From NCBI GenBank assembly GCA_965116495.1, contig OZ220696.1:3776001-3840000 (forward strand): a stretch of 64,000 nucleotides of DNA. The letters are read 5' to 3'. Below, piece after piece: positions 13,428 to 46,643 of this stretch (position 1 is the stretch's first letter; the number at the start of each line of letters is the position of its first letter). Source of the stretch: Gammaproteobacteria bacterium (GTDB lineage Bacteria > Pseudomonadota > Gammaproteobacteria > Eutrophobiales > Eutrophobiaceae). The position numbers were made by a program, and so were the translations under genes. The notes under the pieces are model-generated. The model searched no databases. It was not told where the DNA came from and was given only the letters and a program-made list of their open reading frames with translations.

Positions 13428-13628
13428 ATGGGTACAGCACTTTGCAAGGCCTTGCGGGAGGCAGGGGTATCGGATGAAATTGCCACCGCCGCGGCCGATG
13501 ACGCCGGGCAGACTGAGCGCCTGCAACGCGTGGAAGAGAGATTGACTCGTGTCGAGGTCACCTTGCGGGTATTGGTTGGTTTGGCGGTAGCTATCCTGGT
13601 CTTGCAATTACAACCGTTCCTTTCCTGA
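13428..13628 (+). CDS. Small coiled-coil protein with C-terminal TM anchor (DUF1640/CCDC90-like)
   Basis: L.KALREAGVSDE.A.AAA head, heptad stalk, hydrophobic C-terminus; clear paralogue at 31682-31900. Confidence 0.65.
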   Translation: MGTALCKALREAGVSDEIATAAADDAGQTERLQRVEERLTRVEVTLRVLVGLAVAILVLQLQPFLS

Positions 13629-13849
13629 TCACCGGCGGATGCAGGGCTTCACCCAGGCAGAGAGTACTATAGCAATCAGGAGCCGGTACTTTCTCTTACA
13701 TTGTGCTCAGAATCCTGAACCCGCATACTGATCCCGATATTTAGCAAATGGCACGCGGCGGTATGGTTGACATATTCTATATCATGCCAGATTTTTACTG
13801 TGGTTGTTATTGTGGGAACACCGCATAAAGACTATAAAAAATCATTAAT

Positions 13850-13862
13850 AATCAGTAAGTTA
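13850..13862 (+). promoter_or_regulatory. IHF-binding-site match beside the tRNA 3' end
   Basis: AATCAGTAAGTTA fits WATCARNNNNTTR in A-rich context. Confidence 0.4.
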
Positions 13863-13871
13863 TAAAAAAAA

Positions 13872-13947
13872 TGGCTCCCCGGGACGGGCTCGAACCGCCG
13901 ACCTAGTGATTAACAGTCACCCGCTCTACCGACTGAGCTACCGGGGA
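13872..13947 (-). tRNA. tRNA-Asn (GTT)
   Basis: TCCCCGG acceptor, GGTGA-CTGTTAA-TCACT anticodon arm, GGTTCGAG T loop, CCA end. Confidence 0.97.
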
Positions 13948-13968
13948 ATTGTGGTTGGAATAATCCTG

Positions 13969-14184
13969 TTACGCCATGGCATGCCATATCAGGCCCAGAG
14001 TCATCGCCATGTTTACGCCCACCATCCATTTGAGCACATGGATGTCTGCTTTAATTTCAGTTATATCAGCTTTAGTGGCGACCTGACCCTGACCCAATAT
14101 CGACATTGCTGCTTTCCGGGCTTTAGTTTCCGGGACATTTACACTTATAAGCGCATCGTATAGTTCCATGTTCATCATGCTCAT
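13969..14184 (-). CDS. Small DUF1640/CCDC90-like coiled-coil membrane-anchored protein
   Basis: ELYDALISVNVPETKARKAA head, VATKADI neck, LKWMVG+TM tail; GAGGAG RBS before ATG at 14184. Confidence 0.75.
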   Translation of the reverse strand: MSMMNMELYDALISVNVPETKARKAAMSILGQGQVATKADITEIKADIHVLKWMVGVNMAMTLGLIWHAMA

Positions 14185-14264
14185 GATGTCTCTCCTCAAT
14201 TTCCATGTGTTACGTATTCCTGATTGCTTCCTGGTTAACTCGCAAGCGGATTATACACATAATA

Positions 14265-15449: not shown

Positions 15450-15505
15450 GCTAGGCTCCTCTTAGAGACGACTATTCGTGTATTATAATGCGGTTCATTC
15501 CGGCA

Positions 15506-17530: not shown

Positions 17531-17591
17531 GCACTATAAGCCGTCGTTCCCCTTGATCGCTGCCCATAACTGATAGTTCTCAGCATAACCG

Positions 17592-20500: not shown

Positions 20501-21305
20501 CGGAGATGACCGGTTATGGGGTAATGAGGGAGATGACCGGCTGTGGGGCCGTGGCGGTGATGACAGTCTGACGGGTGATGCGGGGGCTGATGTGCTGGAT
20601 GGGGGAGAAGGCAAGGACACGTTACGGGGTGGTGGCGGAGCTGATGAATTGCTGGGAGGCAGCGGCAATGACACGCTGGCGGGCGATGCGGGCGCAGACA
20701 TAATAGACGGCGGTGCGGGTCTGGACACGCTGGATTACAGCCGCTCGCCGGCGGGTGTGGAGGTGGATTTTGCAGCCGGCACCGGAACCGGGGGTGATGC
20801 CGGGGGGGACAGGGTTGTTAACATGGAGAATGTCTGGGGATCGCAATTTGCAGACTCCTTCAGCGGCAGTGAAAGTGTTGTTTCGATATCAGGACTTAAG
20901 GGAAATGATGTTGTGGACGGCGGCGCAGGAAATGACAGGCTGTCGGGAGGTGACGGTAACGACATTTTGCGCGGCCGGGAGGGCGACGACAGACTCCTGG
21001 GTGAAGCAGGGTCTGACGAGTTGATTGGCGGCAGCGGCGCCGACAGACTGAGTGGCGGCAGGGGCAGTGACATATTCACCTTTGGCGGGGGGGATGACGG
21101 TAACGATACCATTTCCGACTTCGTGAACGCAGAAGATCGCATTGACCTTTCCGGCTTTGCCGGTTTGTCCTTCAATGACCTGGTGATATCTGGAGGCCCG
21201 GATAGCAGCATGATCGACCTGACCGGCCATGGTGGGGGCAGAATAACCCTGCAGGGCGTTGATAGCGCCGACCTGGATGCAGCGGATTTCCTGTTTGCCC
21301 GGTAA
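17592..21305 (+). CDS. RTX/hemolysin-type calcium-binding repeat protein with N-terminal hydrophobic helix
   Basis: Dozens of GGxGxDxLx nonapeptides, repeated DY..S.AGV.V...G.G.GG.A.GD....ENxWGS modules, T1SS-like C-terminus (DTISDF...DRIDLS...DFLF). Confidence 0.9.
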   Translation: MKPLISVTDLLILGLTLAVVVILLTNRGAEGGYDLYGGSDADTLIGDPGDNLIWGGAGADTIDGSDGIDTLDYGGSNAGVRVSLAAGTAAGGHAGGDRITNVENIWGSAFDDVLTGDSGINTFIGGPGADTLAGGGAGDSLLGGEGADILRGEAGDDTLAGGSGADIIDGGDDLDALDYRESDAGVEANLVDKTVAGGHAQGDVITGIENIWGSAFADILTGDRGSNILDGDAGGDRLDGGASADVLRGGAGDDNLSGGGGDDTLAGEAGADVLDGGAGVDILDYSGSPAGVAVDFAAGTGVGGDAEGDVIAGMESVWGSGFADRVLGSDGADSFSGDAGPDELDGGAGDDRLWGNEGDDRLWGRGGDDSLLGEAGSDELDGGAGDDELLGGEGDDALLGGDGADVLLGGLGVDRLAGGAGGDDLSGGAGDDELDGGAGADKLYGGEGADRLYGQDGDDTLAGEAGADVLDGGAGVDILDYSGSPAGVAVDFAAGTGVGGDAEGDVIAGMESVWGSGFADRVLGSDGADSFSGDAGPDELDGGAGDDRLWGNEGDDRLWGRGGNDSLLGEAGSDELDGGAGDDELRGGAGDDNLSGGGGDDTLAGEAGADVLDGGAGVDILDYSGSPAGVAVDFAAGTGVGGDAEGDVIAGMESVWGSGFADRVLGSDGADSFSGDAGPDELDGGAGDDRLWGNEGDDRLWGRGGNDSLLGEAGSDELDGGAGDDELRGGAGDDNLSGGGGDDTLAGEAGADVLDGGAGVDILDYSGSPAGVAVDFAAGTGVGGDAEGDVIAGMESVWGSGFADRVLGSDGADSFSGDAGPDELDGGAGDDRLWGNEGDDRLWGRGGNDSLLGEAGSDELDGGAGDDELRGGAGDDNLSGGGGDDTLAGEAGADVLDGGAGVDILDYSGSPAGVAVDFAAGTGVGGDAEGDVIAGMESVWGSGFADRVLGSDGADSFSGDAGPDELDGGAGDDRLWGNEGDDRLWGRGGDDSLTGDAGADVLDGGEGKDTLRGGGGADELLGGSGNDTLAGDAGADIIDGGAGLDTLDYSRSPAGVEVDFAAGTGTGGDAGGDRVVNMENVWGSQFADSFSGSESVVSISGLKGNDVVDGGAGNDRLSGGDGNDILRGREGDDRLLGEAGSDELIGGSGADRLSGGRGSDIFTFGGGDDGNDTISDFVNAEDRIDLSGFAGLSFNDLVISGGPDSSMIDLTGHGGGRITLQGVDSADLDAADFLFAR
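18331..20570 (+). repeat. Near-identical 426-bp (142-aa) intragenic tandem repeat, about 5 units
   Basis: Shadow ORFs recur at 19031/19457/19883/20309 (period 426); first interval is 588 bp. Confidence 0.95.
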
Positions 21306-21334
21306 TCCGGTTCGTTGTATACTTCAAGGTCCAA

Positions 21335-21411: not shown

Positions 21412-21430
21412 GATTTAAGCCTGGAAAAAA

Positions 21431-31487: not shown

Positions 31488-31681
31488 GGGATTAGGGGCA
31501 GGTCCCTAACGGTGTAAATTGACAATTAAGTGTCATACTTACAATAAAGCATCATACTTTAAAAAGTGTCATACTTTTGCAAGATGAATTGGGTGGTTAA
31601 ATCCTTATTGTTGGTATCGAATGTTGGGCGGGTATAGTTTCGGACACCAGCAGACGTTCTCCAGGTGACCGGTCGCGGGGG

Positions 31682-31900
31682 TTATTGTAAAAGTGGGGCC
31701 AGTGGTACTGCTAGGATGACGAGTAGCAGGGCCGGGGTGATACGTGACGTTGTCCGGAATTCCGCTCGTAGCTCAGCCAGTTCGGTCTCGATCCGGTGCA
31801 GCCGCTCGCTCTGTCCCGCGCCGGCCGCGGCTTGTTTCGCTTGTTCTTCGGTTACGTTTGGTATCTGGCGTAGTACTTGGTAAAGGTCTTTTGTGCTCAT
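31682..31900 (-). CDS. Small coiled-coil/TM protein (DUF1640/CCDC90-like), sole cargo of the mini-element
   Basis: DLYQVLRQIPNVTEEQAKQAAAGAGQSERLHRIE, similar to the 13428 gene; hydrophobic C-terminus. Confidence 0.65.
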   Translation of the reverse strand: MSTKDLYQVLRQIPNVTEEQAKQAAAGAGQSERLHRIETELAELRAEFRTTSRITPALLLVILAVPLAPLLQ

Positions 31901-32105
31901 TTTGTTCACCGTATGATAAATGGTAGCAGAGAGGGTGCTTTGTCGTAAAATCGAATATAGTCATTGTTCATTGTTATATGCAATGAAGAGCTCGTTCGGT
32001 GTTAGGTTCGGATGACAACTTTATACATATTAATGAGGAGATTAGAATTAATCTGCGTCCGAAGTATGGTACTTTTGCTTTTATCTCCAAAAAGGTATCA
32101 AACAG

Positions 32106-32118
32106 AATCAACAACTTA
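32106..32118 (+). promoter_or_regulatory. IHF site inside the putative transposon left end
   Basis: AATCAACAACTTA is an exact WATCAANNNNTTR match, between the two outermost putative TnsB sites. Confidence 0.6.
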
Positions 32119-32160
32119 GGCTCTTGAAAGCACGATACTTTGTTGTATATTCACAACACC

Positions 32161-32802
32161 GTGATGGATTTTCTTGATTTTCGCCTGATTGTTAATACTG
32201 CTATAGGTACTGCTATTGGCGGGGTTGTTGCTACTTTTTTGTTTCTTCCAATTGTGATTGCTTGGCTTAAGACAGCATCAAATTGGAGCGGGTGGAAAAG
32301 AATAACTGTGGTTTTTGGCCCTGTCGCCGTTATTGTTTTATTTATTACATTTCTATTTTTGATTAAATATTTGGAATTGGCTGCGCAAGATAGTTTTGCG
32401 TTTTCGTGCCCTAAAGAATGTGTGCTGGATGAAATAACAGTTGTCAATAAATGTAATAGAACAGGAAATTTGTACGCCAACCCAGAAACGAGAATAAAAA
32501 TGTTAAGCGATAAGGAAATTTATTCTATGTTGCCTGGAAATCCGCCTGAGCCAAGGTATTTTTATCATGGTTTCTATCGGAAAGAGTCCCCATACCCATC
32601 TGCTATAACAGATTTAGCCAGACAAACATTTTTTGGTTGTATCAAAAAATCTGGTTACGTACCTCATGAGTGTGCAGCAGGCAAGCTTTGTTACAAAATA
32701 ATATCTACGTCATTTTTTGATAATGAACTGGGATTACCTATGACAGGACGTATAAACGGAATAAGTATGGTACGCGTTGAACCTTCAACGGAAATTGATT
32801 AA
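32161..32802 (+). CDS. Hypothetical AT-rich membrane protein (two N-terminal TM helices, Cys-rich soluble part)
   Basis: Long ORF in low-GC DNA; start placed at GTG 32161/ATG 32164, outside the transposon end. Confidence 0.6.
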   Translation: MMDFLDFRLIVNTAIGTAIGGVVATFLFLPIVIAWLKTASNWSGWKRITVVFGPVAVIVLFITFLFLIKYLELAAQDSFAFSCPKECVLDEITVVNKCNRTGNLYANPETRIKMLSDKEIYSMLPGNPPEPRYFYHGFYRKESPYPSAITDLARQTFFGCIKKSGYVPHECAAGKLCYKIISTSFFDNELGLPMTGRINGISMVRVEPSTEID

Positions 32803-32841
32803 TCCGATTAATTCTCTTTTGCTCAGTTAGAAGTATTATTC

Positions 32842-33891
32842 GTGAATATTCCGAATAATGAGGGTATGGCGTGCGACGCCGTGATACGGCATCTTGAGAA
32901 ATGGACCGACGAGACACGCACCGAAATTCGTCATCCCGAATCAGACGGTGTCGGTCCGCCCGTTGAACTGCGCCTGCAACTGGGCAATCAAAACTACGCG
33001 ATTGAGCACACGCGCGTTGAGTCGTTTGATAACCAGATCAAGGCCGGCATCTCAATCAGAGAAATAAAGAACTATATCAAGGAGCAGTTTACGGACCCCT
33101 TGCCGGGACCGGTTTACTACGAATTGCAGGTGCCGATGGATGTCTGCCTCCCTGAAAAGAGGAAAGATAGAGAGCGGATGTTAAGCACTCTTGACATGTG
33201 GATTAGAGAGGGTGCGCATTGTATGCATGGGAGGAACACAGACCTTTTTAGACCCCTGTTCGCACCCAATCGTAGCAAAGTCTGGCACGATGACTGCGTT
33301 ACCGGCACACCGCTGGGTACTGCTTATGAAATCAAATTGGTGCGGACAAAACTCTGGCCGCCTGATATACATACAGCAGGGCGCAAGCCGGGGACTATTG
33401 TGCTGTGGTACAACTACCTCGATGAAGATGAAAGAAGCCATCGTTATTTCAGGCGGCTGCAACGGGCGTTTGACAAAAAGTGCCCGAAACTCAAACGTTG
33501 CAAGGTCGAAGGCGCCCGAACGGTACTGATACTGGAGGCCGTCGATTCCATCGTCACGCTCACCGACCAGATAGGTCGCCATCTTCCAGCATTACTGGAC
33601 GGACAGAAGGATGCGCCGGACGATATTTATCTGGTAAGTCCCAGTGACTCTCTGTGGTGGGTGTATCCGGTAAAACATGATGACGACCATTGGCCTGACG
33701 TGGGGATGCCGCCGCCGGGACAATCCATCTACGAGGAAGGCATATCACCGACGGCAGGCATGCCGAAATGGTACAGGGATGGACTCGGGTTGGATGATTT
33801 GTATGTGACTATGCCGCGGAAGTGGTACCCGGGCACCTTCGACCAACATGAACTGGATGACCTGACACAGGACCAGGCTTCAGAGATGTGA
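32842..33891 (+). CDS. Hypothetical protein, possible PD-(D/E)xK-like nuclease fold
   Basis: 349-aa ORF; PE......PVELRL......YAIEHT resembles the P(D/E)...IEHT pattern; function uncertain. Confidence 0.55.
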   Translation: MNIPNNEGMACDAVIRHLEKWTDETRTEIRHPESDGVGPPVELRLQLGNQNYAIEHTRVESFDNQIKAGISIREIKNYIKEQFTDPLPGPVYYELQVPMDVCLPEKRKDRERMLSTLDMWIREGAHCMHGRNTDLFRPLFAPNRSKVWHDDCVTGTPLGTAYEIKLVRTKLWPPDIHTAGRKPGTIVLWYNYLDEDERSHRYFRRLQRAFDKKCPKLKRCKVEGARTVLILEAVDSIVTLTDQIGRHLPALLDGQKDAPDDIYLVSPSDSLWWVYPVKHDDDHWPDVGMPPPGQSIYEEGISPTAGMPKWYRDGLGLDDLYVTMPRKWYPGTFDQHELDDLTQDQASEM

Positions 33892-34106
33892 TGTCGAAAT
33901 TGAGTGATACTGATTGGATTAGGACGACACCATGAGTGTCTCGAAAAGCATTGCGACCGACTTCATCGTTGGAGATTAGGAATGCCCGAGAAAGTAATAC
34001 ACCAGTGCTGACGTTGCAGCGGGCGAGGTAACGTTGGAACACGCACCTCCCGCATCGCTCAAAGAATCACCCCTCTGCTTGACATGCTTTCCAAAGACAA
34101 GAAAAC

Positions 34107-34295
34107 GTGATGTCCGAAGGGCACAACCCACCCATCGGCATCCTTCTCTGCATACAGCGTGATCATACGCTGGTAGACTATGCGCTGGCCCGGATGGACA
34201 ACAGCCTTTTTGTTTCCAAATACCAGCTAGAGCTTCCAAATAAGGAAGAAATGCAGCGGTTTATCGAGGTACGGGGGCGGGAAACGGGATCATGA
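34107..34295 (+). pseudogene. C-terminal fragment of a YhcG/DUF1016 PDDEXK nuclease
   Basis: EG.NPPIGILLC......LV.YAL..M...LFVSKYQLELP..EEMQRFIE. Confidence 0.8.
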
Positions 34296-34380
34296 AACCG
34301 TTAACTGGATCGCAAATTGCTATCATCCACCTGAGAGTGACCAAGTCAGCAACAGTTCTTGAGACCTGCACGGAGCAAAT

Positions 34381-34479
34381 ATGGGAAAGATTGAGAATTT
34401 TGAAGATATCGAAGCTTGGAAGAAGGCGCGGGAACTGGCCAGGCAAGAGCAACTGAAGCTGACCGGAGGCAACAAATGA
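34381..34479 (+). pseudogene. N-terminal fragment of a four-helix-bundle (IVS-protein-like) gene
   Basis: [21 protein letters not shown] then unrelated tail; TGA overlaps hsdM ATG. Confidence 0.7.
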
Positions 34480-36026
34480 GCAAGAACAACAATAGTGCCA
34501 ATCTCGGCTTTGAGAACCAGATGTGGGCAGCTGCAGACAAGCTCCGGGGGCATATGGACGCCTCTGAGTATAAGCACGTGGTTCTCGGTTTGATTTTTCT
34601 GAAATACATCTCTGACGCTTTCCAGGCCAAGTACAAGCAGCTTGAGGCCATGAAGGATACCGAATACACCGACCCGGAAGACCGAGACGAATACTCGGCA
34701 GCCAACATCTTCTGGGTGCCGAAGGAAGCCCGCTGGGCCAAACTGCAGGCGAGCGCCAAACAAACGACTATCGGCAAGCTCGTTGATGATGCGATGGTGG
34801 CCATTGAAAAAGAGAATCCGACGCTTAAAGGCGTTCTCCCCAAGGACTATGCGCGCCCGGCCTTGGACAAACACCGTTTGGGTGAGCTCATCGATATCAT
34901 CAGCAAGATCGGGCTTGGGGATGATGAATCCAGGTCGAAAGATATTCTTGGTCGGGTCTATGAGTATTTCCTCGGGCGTTTTGCCGCAGCGGAAGGAAAA
35001 GGCGGCGGCGAGTTTTACACGCCTCAGTGCGTGGTCAAACTGCTCGTCAGAATGATCGAGCCCTATAAAGGCCGCGTGTATGACCCGTGCTGCGGCTCTG
35101 GCGGCATGTTTGTCCAGAGTGAGCATTTTGTTGAAGAGCGCGGCGGACGCCTGGGCGACATCGCCATCTATGGCCAGGAGTCCAACTCCACTACCTGGCG
35201 GCTAGCCATGATGAACCTTGCCATCAGAGGGCTTGATGCCAATGTTGGAGGTCAGCATGCAGACAGCTTCCACAACGACCTGCACAAAGACCTGCGCGCC
35301 GATTTCATCCTCGCCAATCCGCCTTTTAACATGAGCGACTGGGGCGGCGAACGCCTTCGGGAAGACGCCCGCTGGAAATACGGCATCCCGCCGGTGAACA
35401 ACGCCAACTACGCCTGGATTCAACATTTCATCCATCACCTGTCGCCTACGGGTGTTGCCGGTTTTGTCATGGCCAACGGCTCCATGTCCACCAATACCAC
35501 CAGCGAGGGAGAAATTCGCAAGAACATCATTGAGGCTGACTTGGTGGACTGCATGATTGCGTTACCCGGACAGCTCTTTTACACGACGCAGATTCCGGTG
35601 TGCCTCTGGTTCGTAGCCCGGAACAAGAAGAACGGCAAGTTCCGCAACAGGCGCGGCCACACGCTTTTCATTGATGCGCGCAAACTCGGCGCCCTCGTTG
35701 ATCGAACCCACAAGGATTTTTCCGAAGAAGAGATCGACAACGTCGTAACCACCTACCATGCCTGGCGGGGCGAAAAGAATGCCGGTGAGTATAACGATGT
35801 GCCAGGCTTCTGCAAGAGCGCCAGTACCGGGGAAATCAAGGAACATGGTTACGTGTTGACCCCTGGTCGCTATGTGGGCGTTGCTGAGATCGAGGACGAC
35901 GGCATTCCATTCGAGGAGAAGATGGCCGGACTTTCAGCCACGTTATACGAACAGTTTGCCGAAGCCGACAGGCTCGAAGCCGTCATCAGGAAGAACCTGG
36001 AGGTCTTGGGGTGTGGGGTGGAATAG
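34476..36026 (+). CDS. hsdM: Type I restriction-modification methyltransferase subunit
   Basis: [28 protein letters not shown]. Confidence 0.96.
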
Positions 36027-36210
36027 ATGACGGTTCGAGTATCCATCAGTTCGGTACAGAAAGAGCTTGAACCGGAGCGGCTCGCATTGTTCTCGTTATT
36101 GACCACCGATCCGACGTTAAAGGGTTATATTGAACCCATTCTCTTCGAACAGCTTTTCTCGCCCGTGGGCAGGGCGAACCGACCGATAATCGACCGACGA
36201 AACGGAAAAA

Positions 36211-36312
36211 ATGACCGAACTTTCAGCCACGTTGTATAAGCAGTTTGCCGAACCTGCTCAACTCGGAGCCAGCATACAAAAGAATTTGGGGTCGATGGGC
36301 TATGGCGAGTGA
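36211..36312 (+). repeat. Diverged second copy of the hsdM 3' end
   Basis: MTELSATLYKQFAEPAQLGASIQKNLGSMGYGE versus [34 protein letters not shown] (35922-36026). Confidence 0.85.
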
Positions 36313-37543
36313 TTGGCAGGAATACAAGCTCGCGGACCTCTGCGAGTCGATTGATTATGGATTCACTACATCGGCCAAAGACGAGCCTGTAGGGCCGAAG
36401 TTCCTTCGTATTACCGATATTGTGACCGGTCATATTGACTGGAATGATGTGCCTTACTGCGAGAGTGACCAAGCTAATACTAAACAGTACCTTGTCCATG
36501 ACAAAGACATTGTTATCGCTCGAACAGGCGCAAGTACCGGGAGCAGTATTTTTATATCTTCTCCCCCAGAAGCAGTGTTTGCTTCGTATCTGGTACGTCT
36601 GAAGATTTCTGATAAGGCTCATTCTCGGTTTATCTCTTATTTTCTGAAATCTCCAGAGTTCTGGGCTTATATGCAGGGCGTATTGGGTGACAAATCTGCA
36701 CAACCCAATGCTAGCGCTAAGACAATGACCCAGGTCAAACTGAAATTACCACCAAATAATGAACAACAGGCCATTGCTCATATCCTCGGATCGCTGGACG
36801 ACAAAATTGAATTGAACCGCCGGATGAACGAAACGTTGGAGGCCACTGCCCGGGCAACTTTCAAGTCCTGGTTCGTGGATTTCGATCCGGTGCGAGCCAA
36901 AGCAGAAGGCGGTGACACCGGCTTGCCGGAAGATGTGGCCGCGCTCTTTCCCGACAGTTTCGAGAACTCGGAGCTTGGGGAGATTCCGGCGGGGTGGTAT
37001 GTCAAGACAATTGGAGATGTGGCTGAGTTTGCCTATGGAAAGGCCTTAAAGGCATCCGATAGAAAACTCGGCGACGTACCGGTATTTGGTTCCAATGGAC
37101 AAGTGGGACTACACAATGAAGTCTTTGTCAAAGGACCAGGAATCGTTGTCGGACGAAAAGGCAATCCAGGAATCGTCACATGGTCATATGAGGATTTTTT
37201 CCCAATTGACACAACCTTCTATGTCAAGAAAACAGGAGTTGTTTCAAGCCTGCACTATCTTTTCTATGCTCTAAAATATCAAGATTTACCGAGTTTAAGC
37301 GCAGATTCCGCCGTTCCTGGGTTGAACCGAAATTTAGCATATATGAGTAAGTTCTTAGTGCCTCCTGAAAAGGTCTTGAAGGTTTTAGATGGACAGATTT
37401 ATCCATTATTTCAAACGATCTACACAAATGAAAAAGAAATAATAACCCTCGCTTCTCTCCGCGATATCTTCCTGCCCAAACTCATTTCCGGCGAGTTGCG
37501 TGTCCCGGATGCCGAGAAATTCGTTGAGGAGGCCGGGATATGA
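36302..37543 (+). CDS. hsdS: Type I RM specificity subunit (two TRDs)
   Basis: LPP..EQQAIA.ILGSLDDKIELN, ELGEIP.GW, L..LRD..LPKLISGELRV. Confidence 0.95.
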   Translation: MASDWQEYKLADLCESIDYGFTTSAKDEPVGPKFLRITDIVTGHIDWNDVPYCESDQANTKQYLVHDKDIVIARTGASTGSSIFISSPPEAVFASYLVRLKISDKAHSRFISYFLKSPEFWAYMQGVLGDKSAQPNASAKTMTQVKLKLPPNNEQQAIAHILGSLDDKIELNRRMNETLEATARATFKSWFVDFDPVRAKAEGGDTGLPEDVAALFPDSFENSELGEIPAGWYVKTIGDVAEFAYGKALKASDRKLGDVPVFGSNGQVGLHNEVFVKGPGIVVGRKGNPGIVTWSYEDFFPIDTTFYVKKTGVVSSLHYLFYALKYQDLPSLSADSAVPGLNRNLAYMSKFLVPPEKVLKVLDGQIYPLFQTIYTNEKEIITLASLRDIFLPKLISGELRVPDAEKFVEEAGI

Positions 37544-39837
37544 TAGAAAAATTCATTTCAATAAAGAACATCGGGCGGTTTCGAGATTGCAGTCCTCGTG
37601 GGGATGTGTCCTTACGGAAGTTGACCTTGCTTTTTGCCGAGAACGGACGAGGCAAGACGACGCTTTGCGCGATCTTCCGTTCGCTCCAAACCGGCTTGTC
37701 TCAATACATTTCCGAACGGCAAACATTGGGAGCGACAGATTCGGCATCCGTCCAAGTACGACTTGACGGTAATACTTACGCTTTTGCGACCGATGGGTGG
37801 TCGTCCACTCACTCGGACATTATCGTATTTGATTCGGTCTTTGTTCATGACAATGTGTACGCTGGTGATTATGTAGAGCACGAACACAAGAAGAATCTCT
37901 ACCGTGTAGTCGTCGGTGCCCAAGGCGTTCAACTCGCACGGAAGGTTGAAGACTTGGACGGCAAGATTCGTGATGTCAATACCGACATCAACACAAAAAA
38001 AAGCGTTGCATCAAATACTCTCCCGAATGGAACGACGCTCGAGGATTATCTTTCCTGGCAACCTGTCGAAGATGTTGAAACCAAGATAAGTCAGAAGAGT
38101 AGCGAAGTAGCCAATCGTCAGCGCGCTTTGGACAAGGCGACAGAAATACAATCCAAAGGCCTGCTTTCGAAGATTGGCCTGCCCGCTCTTCCTGCCGATT
38201 GCTTGGACATTCTATCCAAACAGTTAACCGATATAATTGCTGATGCTGGGGCGCGCATCCGACGGCAAATCGAAGATCACAGCATGGGGAACCAAGGCGA
38301 AACATGGCTATCTCAGGGATTGGGCTTTGTTGCCGAAGACAAATGCCCCTTTTGCGGGCAAGGAATCACGACCAACGAACTGATTGCCGCCTACAACTCG
38401 CATTTCAACACCGCCTATGCGGAATTGAAGCAGGAAGTTGCAGCCCTTTCTCAGCGAGTATCCAGTGCGGTCGGGGAAACCTCTCTCAACACTCCTCAGC
38501 AAACGTACTCAAGCAACCAGACGCTCGTCGAATTCTGGAAGCAATTTACCGAAATTGCTGTGCCCTCCCTCGACTTCGAGGATGTCCGCATAAAGTACAC
38601 AACGCTTCACGATCTTGCCTCAATGCTGGCTGAAACAAAGCAGCAATCGCCAACGGAGCCCATTCTGCCGGGTGACGATTTCCAGGCCGTGCTTGGTGCT
38701 GTGACTGCCCTTCAATCCTCAGTCGAGGTTTACAATGCCGCAGTGGAAACGGCAAATACTCTCATCAACGAGCAGAAAGCATCAGTGCAGCAAGGCGCTG
38801 ACATAAACGTTCTCAAAAGTGAACTGGCCGACTTGGTGGCTAAGAAAGAGCGCTTCGAGTCGGATGTTGTGCAGGCATGCAAACACTACCAAGATGCGGT
38901 AAAAGCGAAGACCTCTCTTGAACAGCAAAAAACGGCGGCCAAGGAACAGCTCGACCAACACTGCGAGCAGATTCTTCAAACCTGCCAATCGTCCATAAAC
39001 ACATACCTGGACCAGTTTAATGCTGGATTCAGAATCACGAACTCACGGCATCGATATACCGGTGGAACACCCAGCTCTCATTACCAGATTGAAATAAATA
39101 ACAATGCAGTTGACCTTGGCGATTCACGAACACAACCGGGCACACCAAGCTTCAAGACAACTCTGAGTTCGGGAGACCGAAGCGCTTTAGCCCTTGCTTT
39201 TTTTCTTGCGGTGTTGAAGCAGGATGCGGAAATCGAAAACAAGATTGTCGTCTTCGATGATCCATTCACCAGTCAGGATCGCTTTCGCCGCACATGTACG
39301 CAGCAGCTGATTCGCCAAATGGCAGACACGGCCCAACAGGTTATCGTTCTCTCACATGATCCGTCATTCCTGAAATCCATCTGGGAAGGTTACGCAACCG
39401 CAGACATCAAAACTCTGCAAATGTGCAGGACTGGAGATAATACGATCATCGGCGAGTGGGATATTGAAGCGGAAACGAAGTCAACTTACTTGAAGAACTA
39501 CTCCGCGCTTCTTGATTTCTATCGGGAATGGAAAGGTGTACCGTTGGATGTTGCGCGCTCAATCCGTCCCTTCATTGAAGGGTTGCTACGTGCTCGTTTC
39601 CCCGGACACTTTCAACCAAACGAATGGCTTGGTGATTTCATTGTCAAAATCCGGAACGCAAGCAATACCGATGGACTGTCTCCCGCCCAAGCTGATCTAT
39701 CGGAAATCGAAGCGATCAACGATTATTCCAAAAAATACCACCATGATCAGAATCCAAGTGCAGCTTCTGAAACTTTGTCAGAAGACGAATTGCATGGCTT
39801 TGTAAAACGAACACTAAACTTAGCAGGGGATTGTTGA
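37540..39837 (+). CDS. AAA_13 / Rad50-SMC-like ATPase with zinc hook (RloC-like)
   Basis: Walker A AENGRGKTT, coiled coil with CPFCGQ hook, LSSGD signature, VVFDDP, LSHD; extra helical C-terminal domain; sits between hsdS and hsdR. Confidence 0.8.
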   Translation: MIEKFISIKNIGRFRDCSPRGDVSLRKLTLLFAENGRGKTTLCAIFRSLQTGLSQYISERQTLGATDSASVQVRLDGNTYAFATDGWSSTHSDIIVFDSVFVHDNVYAGDYVEHEHKKNLYRVVVGAQGVQLARKVEDLDGKIRDVNTDINTKKSVASNTLPNGTTLEDYLSWQPVEDVETKISQKSSEVANRQRALDKATEIQSKGLLSKIGLPALPADCLDILSKQLTDIIADAGARIRRQIEDHSMGNQGETWLSQGLGFVAEDKCPFCGQGITTNELIAAYNSHFNTAYAELKQEVAALSQRVSSAVGETSLNTPQQTYSSNQTLVEFWKQFTEIAVPSLDFEDVRIKYTTLHDLASMLAETKQQSPTEPILPGDDFQAVLGAVTALQSSVEVYNAAVETANTLINEQKASVQQGADINVLKSELADLVAKKERFESDVVQACKHYQDAVKAKTSLEQQKTAAKEQLDQHCEQILQTCQSSINTYLDQFNAGFRITNSRHRYTGGTPSSHYQIEINNNAVDLGDSRTQPGTPSFKTTLSSGDRSALALAFFLAVLKQDAEIENKIVVFDDPFTSQDRFRRTCTQQLIRQMADTAQQVIVLSHDPSFLKSIWEGYATADIKTLQMCRTGDNTIIGEWDIEAETKSTYLKNYSALLDFYREWKGVPLDVARSIRPFIEGLLRARFPGHFQPNEWLGDFIVKIRNASNTDGLSPAQADLSEIEAINDYSKKYHHDQNPSAASETLSEDELHGFVKRTLNLAGDC

Positions 39838-39912
39838 AATGATTAAGACCTCCGAAACCATTCTTGACTGGATTGTTAAGGAGCTGGCACATCGCATCCC
39901 TGGGTGAGAAGT

Positions 39913-40920
39913 ATGAAGCAAAACAACGAAATCATCCTTTACAGCACCCCGGACGGTGACAAGAAAGTCGGTGTATTGTTTCACGATGAGAATTTCTGGC
40001 TGACCCAGAAGGTCTTGGCTGAGCTATTCAATGTAAAGATACCTGCAGTCAGTAAACATCTTAAAAATATCTTTGAATCCGGTGAACTGATTGAGGATTC
40101 AGTTATTTCCATTTTGGAAACAACTGCTGTCGATGGCAAAAACTATAAAACCAAATATTACAACCTCGATGCCATCATTGCCGTTGGATACCGGGTTAAC
40201 AGCTACCAGGCCACCCAATTCCGTATTTGGGCAACCAAAACTCTGAAAGAATTCATCATCAAGGGTTTTGTGCTGGATGATGAACGGCTCAAACAGGGAA
40301 AGCACTTCGGCAAGGATTATTTCGATGAGCTTCTGGAACGGATTCGGGAAATCCGGGCCAGTGAGAGGCGGTTTTATCAAAAGATCACCGATATTTATGC
40401 GCTTTCAGCGGATTATGATCGGGACGCTCCGATGACCCATGAATTTTTCGCTACCGTTCAGAACAAACTGCACTGGGCCATTACCGGAAAGACCGCGGCG
40501 GAAATCATCTACGAAGCGGCGGATGCAGAAAAAATGCACATGGGGCTTACAAGCTGGAAGCAGGCGCCTGACGGGAAAATTCTGAAATCGGATATCTCTG
40601 TTGCCAAAAACTATTTGAGCGAGGCTCACATCAGAGAATTAAACCGGATTGTGACCGCCTACCTCGACCTTGCCGAAAATCGGGCTGAGCGGCAGATTCT
40701 CATGAGGATGGAAAACTGGGTTCAGTTTCTGCACAGTTTTTTGGAGCTTTCCAACTACCCGATTCTTAAAGACAAGGGAAAAGTAAGCGCGCTCGATGCG
40801 AGATTGAAGGCCGAACAGGAATACGAAACATATAGGAAGCAACAGGACCGGGACTATATTTCCGACTTTGACCGGGAAATTAAGCGCGTTCAGGGCACGC
40901 AAGGGGAGGACTTTGAATAA
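39913..40920 (+). CDS. RhuM-family protein
   Basis: [56 protein letters not shown]. Confidence 0.92.
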
Positions 40921-43900
40921 AACCACCGAAGTACTTCTCGAACGTACCGCCCTCGATTGGTTCCAATCCCTGGGCTGGGCCACAGCCTTCGGCCCGGATA
41001 TCAGCCCTGACGGTCCGACGCAGGAACGCCAAGATTATGCTCAGGTTGTCTTGGCCGGCAGACTTCAGACTGCGCTTGAGAACATCAACCCAAACATCCC
41101 ACCAGATGCCATAGAAGAGGCTGTACGGAAAATCGCGAGGTCCGACTCGCCCAGTTTAATCGAGAACAATCGGTGTTTCCATCGGATGCTTACCGATGGA
41201 GTAGATATCTCCTATATGCAGGCTGGTAGAGAGGTCCACGACAAGGTCTGGCTGCTCGACCTTGAGGACCTGGATAATAACGATTGGCTCGCCGTCAATC
41301 AGTTCACCGTCATCGAGGATCGCAGAAATCGCCGGCCTGACATCGTGGTTTTCGTCAATGGCCTGCCCCTGGGCGTGATCGAGCTAAAAAATCCAGCAGA
41401 TGAAAAGGCAACTATTCGTCACGCATTCAACCAGCTTCAGACGTACAAGAGCGATATACCCGGCCTCTTCATTTATAACGAGCTGCTTGTCATTTCCGAC
41501 GGTCTGGAAGCACGCGGCGGGACGCTTACAAGCGGCTGGGACCGGTTCATGCCGTGGCGCACAATTGACGGCAAAGAATTTGCCCCGCGAGGCTCTGTGG
41601 AACTTGAAGTGCTGCTAAAGGGAGTTTTTGAAAAGCGGCGGTTTCTCGACCTTGTATTGAATTTCATCGTATTCGAAGATGACGGAGCCACCATCGCCAA
41701 GAAAGCGGCGGCGTATCACCAGTTCCATGCCGTGAACAAAGCGGTTGAATGCACTCTGTCGGCGTGCGGCATCGATGCTGATTCCGACATGCTGTATGTC
41801 CGCTTCCCGAAGCATGACGAGCATAACCCTTTTGCAGTGCGCGAACCGCAGGCCGCTTATGGTTCGGGAACCGAACACTTTGGCGGCCGCCGCATCGGGG
41901 TGATCTGGCATACCCAGGGAAGCGGAAAAAGTCTATTGATGGCGTTTTTCGCCGGTAAAGTCATCCGTCATCCCGCCATGGAGAACCCTACGCTGCTGAT
42001 GATCACCGACAGGAACGACCTGGACGACCAGCTTTTCGGAACGTTTTCATCCTGTAACGATCTTCTTCGGCAAACACCCGTTCAAGCGGAAAACCGGGAG
42101 CATTTGAAGAAGCTGCTTCAGGTTCCTGCCGGTGGGGTTGTTTTCACGACGATTCAGAAGTTTCTGCCCGACACCAAGGGCCAGCAATACCCAGAGTTGT
42201 CTGTCCGCCACAATATCGTGGTTATTGCCGATGAAGCGCACCGCAGTCAGTATGACTTTATCGACGGATTCGCACGCCACATGCACGATGCCTTGCCGAA
42301 CGCTTCCTTTATAGGATTTACGGGAACTCCCATAGAGCGTGATGACCGCAACACGCCAGCGGTCTTTGGTAACTACATCGACAAATACGACATCCTGCGC
42401 GCGGTTGAGGACGGGGCCACGGTGCCCATCTTCTACGAAAGCAGGTTGGCGAAAATTGATTTACAGGAGGAGCAAAAGCCGAAAATCGACCCTGAGTTTG
42501 AAGAGATCACCGAGGGTGAAGAAGAGTCCGACAAGCAAAAACTGCGCACCAAGTGGGCCGCCCTTGAAGCGATGGTCGGTACGGAAAAGCGAATCGCACT
42601 CATTGCGGAAGACCTCGTTAGCCATTTTGAGGGTCGTCTCTCAGCCATAGACGGTAAAGCTATGGTTGTTTGCATGAGTCGTCGAATCTGTGTGGACATG
42701 TACAACGCCATCACAAAGCTCAGGCCGGACTGGCAGAGCAGTGACGATGGCAATGGCGTGCTGAAGATCGTCATGTCCGGTTCTGCATCTGATCACGCTG
42801 ACTGGCAGCCCCATATTCGCAGCAAGTCGCGGCGTGAGGCCCTGGCCAAAAGATTCAAGGACCCGGACGATCCTATGAAGGTGGTAATCGTGCGGGATAT
42901 GTGGTTGACCGGTTTCGACTGTCCGTCACTACACACAATGTACGTGGATAAGCCGATGCGGGGGCATGGCCTGATGCAAGCAATAGCTCGCGTCAACCGG
43001 GTGTTCAAAGACAAACCGGGTGGATTGGTTGTCGATTACCTTGGCCTCGCAGATCAGTTGAAACGGGCCCTTGCGGACTACACCGGAGCGGGCGGCCGCG
43101 GTAAGGCGGCGGTCAACCAGGAAGAAGCTGTTGCGGTGATGCTGGAGAAGTTCGAGGTCGTCGTCTCCATGTTCCACGGCTTCGATTACCTCTCTATTCT
43201 CAAAGCAGAACCGGCAACGCGTATCGCCGGTATCGCGGCCGCTATGGAACATATCCTTCAGCTGGACGATGGTAAAAAGCGCTATCTGGCAGAGGTTACG
43301 GCGCTGTCGAAGGCATTTGCTCTCGCTGTTCCGCATGAGGAAGCTCTTAAGGTGCGTGATGAAGTGGGGTTCTTCCAAGAGGTCCGCGCCGGGCTGGCGA
43401 AAGCAACGGTTGAAGGCGAAGGCAAGAGCCCTGAAGATATGGATACTGCTATCCGCCAGCTCGTGTCGCGAGCAGTGGCGACTGAAGAGGTCATCGACAT
43501 TTTTGCAGCGGCGGGCCTGAAGAAACCCGACATTTCAATACTATCGGATGACTTCCTCCAGGAAGTACGGCAGCTTCCTCACCGGAACCTGGCGGTGGAA
43601 TTACTGAGGAAACTTCTGAACGATGAGATCAAGACGAATTCCCGCAAAAACGTCGTTCAGGCACGATCCTTCGCGGAGATGCTTGAAAAGGCCATACGGA
43701 AATACCAGAACCGTGCAATTGAGGCAGCACAGGTCATCGAGGAATTAATCAGGTTAGCCAAGGAGATGCGCGAAGCTCAGCAGCGTGGCGATGATCTCGG
43801 GATGACCGATGATGAGATTGCTTTCTACGACGCGCTGGAAGTCAATGATAGCGCCGTTAAGGTTTTAGGGGATGAGACGCTCAAAACGATTGCCCACGAG

Positions 43901-44089
43901 TTGGTCGAAGCGGTTCGACGGAGCGTAACGATAGACTGGACCGTCCGTGAAAATGCCCGTGCCCAAATACGTGTGATCGTGAAGCGGATTCTTCGCAAGT
44001 ACGGGTATCCCCCGGACAAACAGGAAAAAGCAACACAAACCGTTCTGGAGCAGGCGGAAGTTCTGTGTAGAGAGTGGGCCGAGAGCTAA
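40913..44089 (+). CDS. hsdR: Type I restriction endonuclease subunit R
   Basis: RPD...VNGLP..VIELK nuclease, [25 protein letters not shown]; TTG start after GGAGGA. Confidence 0.96.
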
Positions 44090-44209
44090 ACCAGGGAGAA
44101 ATGCAAATTCAATGATGAGAGATGAAATAGCATGTTGTTTCAACGACACCCAGTCATGTATCCAGGGTGATCCTGACCTGCTCGGTCCACAGGCGAAAGG
44201 TGTGGACAA

Positions 44210-45292
44210 ATGAGTGTGCTCGATGCCGCTATACAGGTATTGAAAGAAGCGGATAACCCACTTCATGCTAATGAGATTACGGGACGTATTCTATCGAAGG
44301 GCCTTTGGAAGACCTCCGGCAAAACTCCTGCTGCGACTGTCAGTGCAAGGCTCTATTCGGATATTAAGAAAAAGGGAGAAAACTCACATTTCATCCTTCA
44401 CGCGCCGCTGACCTTCGGCCTCAGAACATTGGAGTTCCCTGATAAGGGTGCGGGTGATGCGCAGCCTGAGGATATTTCCTTGGAGGCTATCCAGACACAA
44501 ACCAAGACATACTCATTCACTGATTCTGCCGAGAAAGTGTTGGAAAAGTTCGGTAATAGACGACCAATGCATTATCGAGCTATTACCGACAAGGCTCTTG
44601 GGTTGGGGTGGCTGGTCAGCGAGGGTAAGACACCCGAAGCTTCAATGTACGCGCAGATTTTGACGGAAATTAAACGCTTTAACCGCCGTGGGGAGCAGCC
44701 TCGATTCGTTCAGCATGGTAAGGGGTATGTTGGCCTTTCGAAATGGATGGGTCGGGGGCTCGCATTTGAAATCGAACAGCACAATAAAAAAGTACGCCAG
44801 GCATTGCATAAACGCCTGTTCGAAACGAAGTGGGATGCTTTTGAGGAATTGATTGCACGGCTCTTGGCAGAGATGGGTTTCGAGGAAATCGAGGTCACAA
44901 GCCGCAGCAAGGATGGTGGCATCGACGTTCGTGGAACCTTGGTTGTCGGTGATGTCATTCAGACGAGAATGGCCATTCAGGTTAAAAAGTGGAAGCGAAA
45001 TATACAGGCTCCGGTCGTCCAACAGGTCCGAGGGAGCCTCGGCACCCACGAGCAAGGGCTCATCATCACTACCAGTGACTTCAGTGCAGGTGCACGCAAG
45101 GAAGCCGCCAGATCGGATGCCACACCCGTCGGGCTAATGAACGGAGAACAACTGGTTCTACTGCTCATCGAAAACGGCATTGGAGTTTCACGACGAAGCC
45201 ACGATTTGTTTGAACTCGAGGATTTATCCAACGCAGAGGTTGGCACCAATGCCAGTGTACCCATGTCTCAGTCCGACAATGTGGAAGGATGA
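44210..45292 (+). CDS. Mrr-family (Type IV) restriction endonuclease with two HARE-HTH domains
   Basis: Two repeats of D.A..VL......H...IT...L..G.....GKTP.A; FEELIA.LL..MGF, DGGID, IQVKK, ITTSDFS. Confidence 0.88.
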   Translation: MSVLDAAIQVLKEADNPLHANEITGRILSKGLWKTSGKTPAATVSARLYSDIKKKGENSHFILHAPLTFGLRTLEFPDKGAGDAQPEDISLEAIQTQTKTYSFTDSAEKVLEKFGNRRPMHYRAITDKALGLGWLVSEGKTPEASMYAQILTEIKRFNRRGEQPRFVQHGKGYVGLSKWMGRGLAFEIEQHNKKVRQALHKRLFETKWDAFEELIARLLAEMGFEEIEVTSRSKDGGIDVRGTLVVGDVIQTRMAIQVKKWKRNIQAPVVQQVRGSLGTHEQGLIITTSDFSAGARKEAARSDATPVGLMNGEQLVLLLIENGIGVSRRSHDLFELEDLSNAEVGTNASVPMSQSDNVEG

Positions 45293-45341
45293 GTCAAAAT
45301 TCCTAAATGGCAGATGGTCCAGGTTAGAAGACGGGGTCAAC

Positions 45342-45915
45342 ATGGGTAGTTATTGCACTCTCTACTTTGATGAGCTAGAAATATGCAACGCGAAGTCAGC
45401 CGTTCCAGACGTTTTTAGTGCTATCTTCCAAGAGTCAGATCGATCGGTTCGAAAATCTCGATATGAGGAAGATAACACGCCAGAAGTAGTATATGAAACT
45501 GCTAAAGATACAGTACTCGCCCGTCTCGCTCTCCTAGGATGTACTTCGCAATTTGCACGTGAACGGCTATCCACATGGATTACCGAAGAACGTGCAACTT
45601 GGGAAGAACGTGCTTCGGGGGACGAAGGAAATTGGGCTGAAGAGACTACTATGGCTCTACGTAACTTTACCATTGAAGAGTGGTATAGACGCGTTCCTCA
45701 GGTCCTTGTTAATTAGGGAACCTCTGGCTTAATCAGATGGTTCCCTAGTAAAATTTCTTAAAGCTTTCGCTGCAGCCAGAACTCCTCTTCGCCTTGTCGC
45801 AATCTTCGATAACGATACTGCTGGACATCAGGCATTCCGACAAGCCCAAGACCTTGTTTTGCCTGATAACATGATTTTACTTCGATTGCCAGATATGGAA
45901 TTTGCTAGTGAATAT
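45342..45915 (+). pseudogene. HEPN/Toprim-associated N-terminal domain protein, broken and internally deleted
   Basis: MGSYCTLYF......K..V......IFQESDR N-terminus stops at 45716; out-of-frame Toprim piece FLKAFAAA......AIFDNDTAG...LPD resumes at about 45748. Confidence 0.7.
45713..45748. mobile_element. Collapsed IS5-like footprint (two terminal IRs only)
   Basis: TTAG-GGAACCTCTG-GCTTAAT-CAGATGGTTCC-CTAG exactly at the gene break. Confidence 0.55.
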
Positions 45916-46047
45916 AAACTTCATGCTTTTCTGCTTTTTCTTGACCTGTGCCATTATTAGGTCTAATACATATTTGCTACTCGGAGTATGCTAACCGGAA
46001 GGAACTGGAAATGATTAACGGTAAAGTTATTAGCACAGGAGAAAGAT

Positions 46048-46458
46048 ATGCGAAAAGTTATTGGTCTTGCGATGTTGTTACTTCTTTCCGGTTGTGATGA
46101 CGCAGAGGTGGCGTCGCACAACTTGTCAAAAGCAGCGGAGAATTTTGAGATTGACCGGCGTGTGATTTTCTATAACGGCATCGCGGATACGTACATGCTG
46201 ACCATTGAGGGCCGGTGCGCAATCAAAGACCAGTCCACTCAGTTAGAGGTTACCTGCAAGTTAGGCGAGGGTCAGTACAAGAAACACTTTCTTGGCCTGT
46301 CTGACAACGTGACGTACTTCGCTGAGCAACTGAGTACGGCGGATGTGGCTGCGTATCATTATCGGGTGACGTTCAAGCCACAAACGATTTTGCCGGACGT
46401 TGACTTCCGCGGCAGCGCCAGGGAGCTTTTGGAAAACGCATCCGAAAAAAGGGATTGA
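46048..46458 (+). CDS. Phage-type lipoprotein of unknown function
   Basis: Lipobox LSGC; A.VAS.NLSKAA.NFEI.RRV.F.NGI.D.Y.L.IEGRC...YKKHFLGLSDNVTYF.EQL, a family I recognise from phages. Confidence 0.75.
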   Translation: MRKVIGLAMLLLLSGCDDAEVASHNLSKAAENFEIDRRVIFYNGIADTYMLTIEGRCAIKDQSTQLEVTCKLGEGQYKKHFLGLSDNVTYFAEQLSTADVAAYHYRVTFKPQTILPDVDFRGSARELLENASEKRD

Positions 46459-46487
46459 TGAACCAGCTAAAGTTTTTGCAGACTGTT

Positions 46488-46643
46488 TTACTGAACAACG
46501 CCAGATGACAACATGACTTGAACAAGCACACCAGTGTCGGCGACAGCAAGACTGGCAGCCACGAACATACAACCGACCATCCAGGTAATGAGCCATGTTT
46601 CCAGCTTGTCTATTCTGGATTCTAATCTTGAAAACCCATCCTT
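46488..46643 (-). pseudogene. Headless remnant of a DUF1640/CCDC90-like gene
   Basis: Manual translation KDGFSRLESRIDKLETWLITWMVGCMFVAASLAVA...; no nearby in-frame start. Confidence 0.55.

What the first reader, a model, noticed from the sequence alone, without database searches (positions are those of the whole stretch)
13428..46643. Four small DUF1640/CCDC90-like genes, each at a mobile-element boundary
Seen: related head-coiled coil-TM proteins at 13428-13628 (inside the tRNA-Asn island), 13969-14184 (ending 21 nt before the tRNA), 31682-31900 (only cargo of the mini-Tn7) and a headless remnant at 46488-46643 (far edge of the glmS island). Two share AAA..AGQ.ERL.R.E; the other two share the L..WMVG tail. 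None was noticed in the housekeeping blocks. Known: this architecture matches prokaryotic CCDC90/MCUR1-like proteins of largely unknown function. Inference: an expanded, mobile family of tail-anchored membrane proteins, possibly for phage exclusion/defence or host interaction.
Basis: partly seen in the sequence, partly recalled or inferred. Interest (0 to 1): 0.7.

Follow-up and report, generated by a model that had tools for sequence, protein, structure and literature searches.

The report
Hopping mini MCUR1-like membrane genes
The four tiny genes are real members of a family of small proteins with a membrane-type tail, distantly related to mitochondrial MCUR1/CCDC90B, that has about twenty copies in this genome and comes and goes between relatives as single-gene inserts (one branch riding a 0.6-kb transposase-less Tn7-type element); they likely act as membrane-tethered adaptors, and a role in phage defence is untested.

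Summary
All four sequences exist at the stated coordinates and are homologous by profile: a model built without them scores them at E 4e-12 to 6e-4. None hits Pfam PF07798 directly. The CCDC90/DUF1640 link runs through paralogues that do, and that match human CCDC90B.

The genome holds about 23 copies, and 21 of 22 genus genomes hold 3-18. Three window copies are in mobile DNA: the tRNA-Asn island, a 643-bp Tn7-type element 25 bp after glmS, and the far edge of the glmS island. The 13969 gene is not: it lies outside the island, is syntenic in 10 of 16 relatives, and has dN/dS 0.05-0.18.

Genome-wide there is no enrichment near tRNAs or defence/mobile genes (4 of 19 copies vs 9 of 20 controls). 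Most copies are bare 0.3-0.5-kb inserts between ordinary genes, missing at the same site in relatives (6 of 6 tested). Seven mini-Tn7 copies in three genomes carry this gene alone, four with perfect 5-bp target duplications.

Verdict: new variant of a known family, function untested. This scan noted such expansions, and the same mini-Tn7, on other DNA.

The parts
13428..13628 (+). Family gene P0002 (66 aa): head, short stalk without neck motif, hydrophobic tail. Cargo at the tRNA-proximal edge of the tRNA-Asn island. Carries Cys at the near-invariant head Tyr and has a replaced upstream region, so it may be decaying.
13196..13427 (.). Dispersed non-coding repeat (many copies in G022 and G015), cut off exactly at the P0002 start codon; it stands where the G016 orthologue has a different upstream sequence
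10581..10598 (+). Duplicated tRNA-Asn 3' end (att-like), left border of the island; integrase arm-domain and IS21 IstB remnants follow (10614-11088)
13872..13947 (-). tRNA-Asn(GTT), integration site of the island at its 3' end
13969..14184 (-). Family gene P0003 (71 aa, VATKAD neck, LKWMVG tail), between aspC-type aminotransferase and tRNA-Asn, outside the island; inserted between a TATAAT box and the tRNA; syntenic in 10 of 16 relatives; dN/dS 0.05-0.18
31513..32155 (.). 643-bp non-autonomous Tn7-type element: TGT...ACA ends with repeated TnsB-like sites, starting 25 bp after the glmS stop; no target duplication in this copy
31682..31900 (-). Family gene P0004 (72 aa, no neck motif), sole ORF of the mini-Tn7, with a conserved upstream leader
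31488..46650 (.). glmS island (type I restriction-modification, AAA_13 ATPase, RhuM, Mrr, HEPN, phage-type lipoprotein), absent in many relatives
46488..46643 (-). Headless remnant P0001 (51 residues: stalk end plus tail), no upstream start, closest to the paralogue at genome 4157-4456 (43%); abuts the isochorismatase stop

Best explanation
These are four independently acquired members of a miniaturised CCDC90/DUF1640-related subfamily that spreads through this genus as single-gene inserts, and the proteins likely sit in the inner membrane by their C-terminal helix and likely use a predicted two-helix cytoplasmic head on a short coiled coil as an adaptor that binds partner proteins or paralogues. 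Shown: homology, copy number, presence/absence at orthologous sites, purifying selection on the tRNA-Asn gene, and capture of one branch as sole cargo of a transposase-less Tn7-type element with 5-bp target duplications. Inferred: topology, oligomerisation and scaffold role (from MCUR1 and Put6/Put7), expression from own or borrowed promoters, insertion of bare cassettes by ordinary or illegitimate recombination, and movement of the mini-Tn7 by Tns proteins supplied in trans by an element not found here.
For: Leave-window-out profile recovers all four. Group A vs group B profiles: 95% probability, E 4e-8 over head and neck. Group B matches PF07798 and PDB 6H9M CCDC90B at E 8e-6 and 6H9L at 3e-6. 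The Atlas lists a CCDC90-like cluster at 0.88, a lead only. The model has helices 3-14, 19-28 and 38-70. A C-terminal hydrophobic stretch is present in 19 of 21 paralogues scored. The window genes fall in different branches, 18-38% identical. In 6 of 6 non-window sites tested, at least one of 5 relatives lacks the gene; the junctions show bare cassettes; one cassette occurs at other places in G019 and G001. dN/dS is 0.05-0.18 for 8 orthologues of P0003. Seven mini-Tn7 copies occur in 3 genomes, 4 with perfect duplications. Eukaryotic members are membrane-tethered scaffolds or hetero-oligomers (PMC7519068, passages read).
Against: None of the four hits PF07798, and only 4 of 107 subfamily members do at E<=0.01. 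The group A profile finds no relevant PDB chain. P0002 and P0004 lack the neck motif. No partner protein is identified, and neighbours are unrelated from site to site, so the adaptor role rests on analogy. The monomer model is weak (pTM 0.31). No expression data were found. No cognate transposase was found in the genus. Several copies look decayed, which also fits weak or transient selection.
Confidence: 0.55

Rival explanations
1. The proteins are single-gene anti-phage or superinfection-exclusion factors: small inner-membrane proteins that would hinder DNA injection or sense a phage protein with the head, and are gained and lost because phage pressure changes.
For: Sole cargo of a Tn7-type element found at several sites. 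Cargo of two islands, one rich in restriction and defence genes. A homologue sits on the opposite strand within the early region of Bordetella phages, a moron-like place. Rapid turnover with 3-18 diverged copies per genome.
Against: No PADLOC match for 4 window proteins or 2 group B paralogues. Neighbours are no richer in defence, mobile or toxin-antitoxin genes than those of random small genes (4 of 19 vs 9 of 20, Fisher P 0.18; 9 of 19 even if the whole RTX/integrase region is counted). P0003 is long-lived at one site. Only 5 of 50,697 phage records match P0003.
Confidence: 0.22
2. The genes are nearly neutral or selfish hitchhikers (possibly mildly toxic membrane peptides) that persist because a tiny self-contained cassette is easily inserted and tolerated.
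For: Degenerate copies: headless P0001, an internal stop in the 3669-kb copy, Tyr-to-Cys and replaced upstream DNA in P0002, a lost start in one G015 element. Cargo dN/dS is higher, 0.22-0.70 among same-tail pairs.
Against: Strong purifying selection on P0003 over saturating synonymous distance. Head residues are nearly invariant across 107 sequences. No antitoxin partner is shared between sites.
Confidence: 0.15
3. The proteins are surface-exposed or delivered factors for interaction with an animal host.
For: Five paralogues lie among RTX-repeat genes and a type I secretion operon. Earlier AI notes call such families typical of sponge symbionts (not tested here).
Against: No N-terminal signal visible; a single C-terminal hydrophobic segment. 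60-100 residues is too short to reach the surface from the inner membrane (own knowledge). The eukaryotic homologues face the matrix (PMC7519068).
Confidence: 0.08

Closest known systems
CCDC90-like / DUF1640 family (Pfam PF07798; human MCUR1 and CCDC90B, PDB 6H9M; prokaryotic 6H9L; yeast Put6/Put7)
   Same: Helical head, ATKxD-type neck (in P0003), coiled-coil stalk, C-terminal membrane anchor; profile homology through group B paralogues.
   Different: Only 61-100 residues; LYxAL head instead of FDT; neck absent in P0002 and P0004; below Pfam threshold; multi-copy with site turnover and transposon carriage.
Tn7-family transposons and non-autonomous derivatives at attTn7 (glmS)
   Same: TGT...ACA ends, repeated TnsB-like sites from base 9, 5-bp target duplication in 4 of 7 copies, one copy 25 bp after glmS; weak end match falls just upstream of tnsA of an annotated tnsABCDE element.
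   Different: 0.6 kb, no tns genes, one 70-residue cargo gene; ends differ from the full Tn7 at glmS in G015; cognate autonomous element not found.
Borrelia Bdr / KID-repeat proteins (name and description recalled; PF02524 hit in one paralogue)
   Same: Multi-copy, variable-length coiled-coil stalk proteins of unknown function; some paralogues here carry T(S)TKEDIRKL-type repeats.
   Different: The four window proteins have no repeats; direct homology to Bdr was not tested.
Phage morons / superinfection-exclusion membrane proteins (concept recalled)
   Same: Small single genes inserted with their own leader between unrelated genes; one homologue in such a position in Bordetella phages.
   Different: No sequence similarity to a characterised exclusion protein; mostly chromosomal, outside prophages.

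Membership tests
CCDC90-like / DUF1640 (PF07798) | Match to PF07798 above the curated cut-off | tested here: not met
   No hit for the four at E<=0.5; genome search lists only other paralogues, 2 over the cut-off; 4 of 107 subfamily members hit at E<=0.01.
CCDC90-like / DUF1640 (PF07798) | Profile homology to PF07798-positive proteins and to solved CCDC90B | tested here: met
   Transitive: group A vs group B 95%, E 4e-8; group A profile ranks 7 group B genes next after group A, E 7e-5 to 0.02; group B hits 6H9M at 8e-6. Group A alone finds no relevant PDB chain.
CCDC90-like / DUF1640 (PF07798) | Beta-layer neck motif [aliphatic]-A-T-K-[polar]-[DE] at the start of the stalk (PMC4786415, passages read) | tested here: inconclusive
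   P0003 has VATKAD (Ala at the polar position); P0002 and P0004 have none; P0001 is cut; 42 of 107 subfamily members have [LIVM]ATKx[DE].
CCDC90-like / DUF1640 (PF07798) | Helical head, coiled-coil stalk, C-terminal transmembrane anchor | tested here: met
   Predicted only: helices 3-14, 19-28, 38-70 for P0003; hydropathy maxima 1.45-2.14 at the C-terminus of P0002-P0004.
CCDC90-like / DUF1640 (PF07798) | Fold match to solved members | tested here: inconclusive
   Low-confidence monomer model; see Tried and rejected.
CCDC90-like / DUF1640 (PF07798) | Trimeric assembly (three chains per entry in 6H9L/6H9M) | tested here: inconclusive
   See Tried and rejected.
Non-autonomous Tn7-family element | TGT...ACA termini with repeated TnsB-like sites | tested here: met
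   31513 and 32155; four such ends in G000, 0 for the reversed control pattern.
Non-autonomous Tn7-family element | 5-bp target-site duplication (PMC11014353, passages read) | tested here: met
   Perfect in 4 of 7 copies, one mismatch in 1, absent in 2 including the window copy.
Non-autonomous Tn7-family element | Cognate tnsABC(D/E) available in trans | tested here: inconclusive
   TnsB-like protein found in 1 of 23 genus genomes (G015) and with other ends; TniQ search of G000 empty but its control was silent.
Non-autonomous Tn7-family element | Transposition shown experimentally | not testable with these tools
   Needs a mating-out or junction assay.
Known anti-phage defence system | Match to a curated defence protein model | tested here: not met
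   No PADLOC hit at E<=0.01 for 6 family proteins.
Known anti-phage defence system | Enrichment beside defence or mobile genes | tested here: not met
   4 of 19 vs 9 of 20 controls.
Integrase (database label of homologues) | Tyrosine-recombinase catalytic domain | tested here: not met
   PF00589 hits in G000 lie elsewhere; the proteins are 66-72 residues; the label appears.

The most novel reading that the evidence does not exclude
A 70-residue bacterial relative of the mitochondrial scaffold MCUR1 is a stand-alone anti-phage or exclusion factor so useful that it has become the sole payload of a natural 0.6-kb Tn7-type transposon and repeatedly inserts as a bare cassette behind host promoters (tRNA-Asn, dprA). 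That would give the prokaryotic DUF1640 family its first function and a conflict origin.
Probability: 0.2. Interest if true: 0.75.

Novelty: new variant of a known kind. Interest (0 to 1): 0.42.

Why it matters
Prokaryotic CCDC90/DUF1640 proteins have no function that my five family-related literature searches found (the key 2019 structure paper was not held). This genus offers minimal 60-70-residue versions with filled and empty sites in close relatives, a copy under strong purifying selection, and a natural single-gene mini-Tn7. That makes the family easy to test by heterologous expression, pull-down and phage challenge. It also shows that database 'integrase' labels on these proteins are wrong. 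The pattern first claimed (always at a mobile-element edge) does not generalise, which keeps the interest moderate.

Tried and rejected
Pfam, NCBIfam, PHROGs and PADLOC scans of the four gave no meaningful family. Fold searches with the P0003 monomer gave nothing at E<=0.001 in Foldseek and only generic long helices, best Z 5.3, in VIA-align. The three-copy complex job for P0004 returned no answer: score 0.33 against a mark of 0.42, controls 0.00; it is used neither for nor against.

tRNA enrichment rejected: 0 of 19 non-window copies within 2 kb, 1 of 19 within 10 kb, vs 5.7% and 19.6% of small genes. Integrase proximity (6 of 23 within 10 kb vs 5.9%) comes from two clusters and is not significant by cluster (P 0.27). 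Local duplication of one gene rejected. I saw no shared terminal repeat in 5 bare-cassette junctions inspected by eye; one has an imperfect 7-bp direct repeat.

Search for the autonomous partner: the end pattern matched 4 stretches in genome contigs, all mini elements, none in metagenome contigs, and no TnsA over cut-off in a 41-genome family sample that held only one other genus member. P0003 had no match in plasmids or IMG/VR. The promoter scan did not call the conserved leader of the mini-Tn7 gene, so promoter statements are by eye from alignments. RNA runs held only small shares, probably the tRNA, so there is no expression evidence. Contigs of four runs laid on 31000-32700 showed no excised form, which is no proof of absence. 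The top hit of the representative search (P0088) is an unrelated repeat.
Full report
Observation. The three intact ORFs and the remnant are in the sequence as described: P0002 13428-13628 (+), P0003 13969-14184 (-), P0004 31682-31900 (-), P0001 46488-46643 (-). P0001 has no start codon upstream in its frame and begins right behind the isochorismatase stop. Pairwise alignment against 2000 shuffles is significant for 2 of 6 pairs, P0002-P0004 and P0003-P0004. A profile built from 7 paralogues outside the window scores P0003 at E 4.2e-12, P0002 at 2.4e-9, P0004 at 1.6e-7 and P0001 at 6.1e-4 among about 3,800 called proteins, so the four are mutually homologous. They are 18-38% identical and fall in different branches of a 25-row tree, in which many forks are weak. 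They are therefore separate acquisitions, not a local duplication.

Family in the genome and genus. Six-frame profile searches of the complete genome give about 23 copies. Group A has an LYxAL head (12 loci, including all window genes). Group B has an FDT-type head (8 loci). Three are odd: one without a typical head and two without a membrane tail. Two group B genes pass the PF07798 (CCDC90-like, formerly DUF1640) cut-off; no window gene is listed, and direct scans of the four are empty. Group A and B profiles align over head and neck at 95% probability, E 4e-8, and the group B profile hits human CCDC90B (6H9M, E 8e-6) and 6H9L. The group A profile alone finds nothing relevant in the PDB. The link is thus real but transitive. 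The group A profile matches 21 of 22 other genus genomes with 3-18 copies, against 5 of the 38 other genomes sampled, and 1,721 cluster representatives at E<=0.001. Records carrying the same mini element are titled Gammaproteobacteria MAGs. Homologues are often labelled 'integrase', which is a mislabel.

Context of each window gene. P0002 lies in a 3.3-kb island between a duplicated tRNA-Asn 3' end (10581) and the tRNA, with integrase-arm and IstB remnants; G022 has the empty site. Its G016 orthologue (91% DNA identity) also faces the tRNA-Asn 3' end. In G000 its upstream DNA is replaced by a dispersed repeat that ends at the ATG, and the near-invariant head Tyr is Cys, so it may be decaying.

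P0003 is on the other side of the tRNA, outside the island. Of 16 relatives in which the site could be read, 10 have the gene between aspC and tRNA-Asn (one frameshifted) and 6 lack it (the regions were picked from earlier hits and non-hits, not at random; 3 further fetches did not hold the site). Alignment to empty sites puts the insert between a TATAAT box and the tRNA, so co-transcription with the tRNA is likely but untested. dN/dS against 8 orthologues is 0.05-0.18.

P0004 is the only ORF of a 643-bp element, 31513-32155, with TGT...ACA ends and repeated TnsB-like sites, starting 25 bp after the glmS stop. P0001 sits at the far edge of the 15-kb glmS island; many relatives have glmS next to the isochorismatase gene.

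The mini-Tn7. A second copy lies at genome 3641009-3641628, and five more are in G015 and G022. All share the ends, the leader and the gene head; the tails are of two types. Four of seven have a perfect 5-bp target duplication, one has one mismatch, and two (including the window copy) have none. Five bp is the Tn7 hallmark (PMC11014353, passages read). Ends of this type occur in 5 of 23 genus genomes, with 0 hits for the reversed control; they include single ends at glmS in G015 and G016. A weak match of the end (E 0.06) falls just upstream of tnsA in an annotated tnsABCDE element. The only TnsB found in the genus belongs to a full Tn7 at glmS in G015 with different ends, so the helper was not found. 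Close relatives of P0004 in other genomes (G003, G007, G010, and a four-gene array in G013) lack these ends: the transposon captured one branch and is not the family's general vehicle.

Enrichment test. For the 19 non-window copies I scanned the three nearest called genes on each side: 92 proteins, leaving out 7 neighbours that lay outside the fetched loci and 4 that are family members, and cutting long proteins to 600 residues. The control was 20 random small genes (120 proteins, cut to 500). By my reading of the Pfam names, 4 of 19 copies have a mobile, defence or toxin-antitoxin neighbour against 9 of 20 controls. The count is 5 of 19 with the second mini-Tn7 and 9 of 19 if the whole RTX/integrase region is counted; Fisher P 0.18 to 1.0. 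There is no tRNA enrichment, and the excess near integrases comes from two clusters. Most copies stand alone between metabolic or core genes. In 6 of 6 such sites compared with 5 relatives, at least one relative lacks the gene, often with the flanks nearly joined. The inserts are 0.3-0.5 kb with no common ends that I could see. One has taken over the ribosome-binding site and first codons of dprA, and one cassette occurs at different places in G019 and G001. The genes behave like morons; a homologue has such a place in Bordetella phages.

How it likely works. The P0003 model has two short helices and one long helix running into the hydrophobic tail (pTM 0.31). Tails score 1.45-2.14 in hydropathy, and the conserved positions are in the head. 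P0003 keeps a near match to the beta-layer neck of DUF1640 proteins (PMC4786415, passages read); P0002 and P0004 have lost it. Yeast Put6/Put7 and MCUR1 are inner-membrane, matrix-facing scaffolds or hetero-oligomers (PMC7519068, passages read). I therefore read the proteins as tail-anchored adaptors with a cytoplasmic head (0.55). The rivals are phage defence or exclusion (0.22), neutral or selfish persistence (0.15) and host interaction (0.08). All functional steps are inferred.

Literature seen. Passages only of PMC4786415, PMC7519068, PMC11014353, PMC7279490, bioRxiv 10.1101/2025.10.14.682030 and PMC5291501, which reports DUF1640 genes in phage regions of Liberibacter. The 2019 Structure paper on the prokaryotic family was not held and may describe such short members or their gene contexts. 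No supplements were read. Searches (listings) showed no paper on this expansion or on this mini element. Earlier AI notes of this scan describe similar expansions and the same mini-Tn7 in other genomes; I had found the element before reading them.

Verdict. This is a genus-wide, fast-turnover, miniaturised branch of a known family, partly in islands, partly settled, with one branch on a natural single-gene Tn7 derivative. New variant of a known kind; interest 0.42.

Noticed in passing
window 34416-45716: Type I restriction-modification cluster with an AAA_13 ATPase (PADLOC PDC-S06), RhuM (PDC-S05), an Mrr-type nuclease and a HEPN fragment: a defence island at glmS.
   Followed up: partly
window 46048-46458: Phage VG64-type lipoprotein; its PHROG label 'recombination directionality factor' fits poorly with a lipoprotein-like N-terminus.
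   Followed up: no
window 13196-13427: A ~230-bp non-coding repeat with up to 9 copies in G022 and 4 in G015, continuing further in those genomes; no gene found behind one copy checked; possibly a miniature element or transposon end.
   Followed up: partly
window 11766-13178: The P450 block of the tRNA-Asn island has a 79.5% identical second copy at genome 4.315 Mb.
   Followed up: no
L007:5858-6292 (genome 1810857-1811291): A group B paralogue with TSTKEDIRKL repeats is inserted into the first codons of dprA and uses its ribosome-binding site; dprA appears to restart behind it.
   Followed up: partly
L013 (genome 3.65-3.67 Mb): RTX-rich region with an integrase, a type I secretion operon and five family genes, two of them without membrane tail and with KID-like repeats.
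   Followed up: no
L101, L151, L100 (G015, G016 at glmS): A full tnsABCDE Tn7 in G015; in G015 and G016 a lone end of the mini element's type lies back to back with the other Tn7 end, followed by an ORF6N gene or its fragment.
   Followed up: partly
L174 (G020): An end of the mini element's type next to relaxase/mobilisation-like genes (read by eye), with other cargo.
   Followed up: no
L032/L040 (G013): Four tandem family genes with stalk-length differences.
   Followed up: no
window 17592-21305: 1237-residue RTX-repeat protein with long internal repeats between uvrB and tRNA-Val, absent at that site in several relatives.
   Followed up: no
window 32140-33891: Two ORFs without any family hit behind the mini-Tn7; the first is low in G+C.
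   Followed up: no
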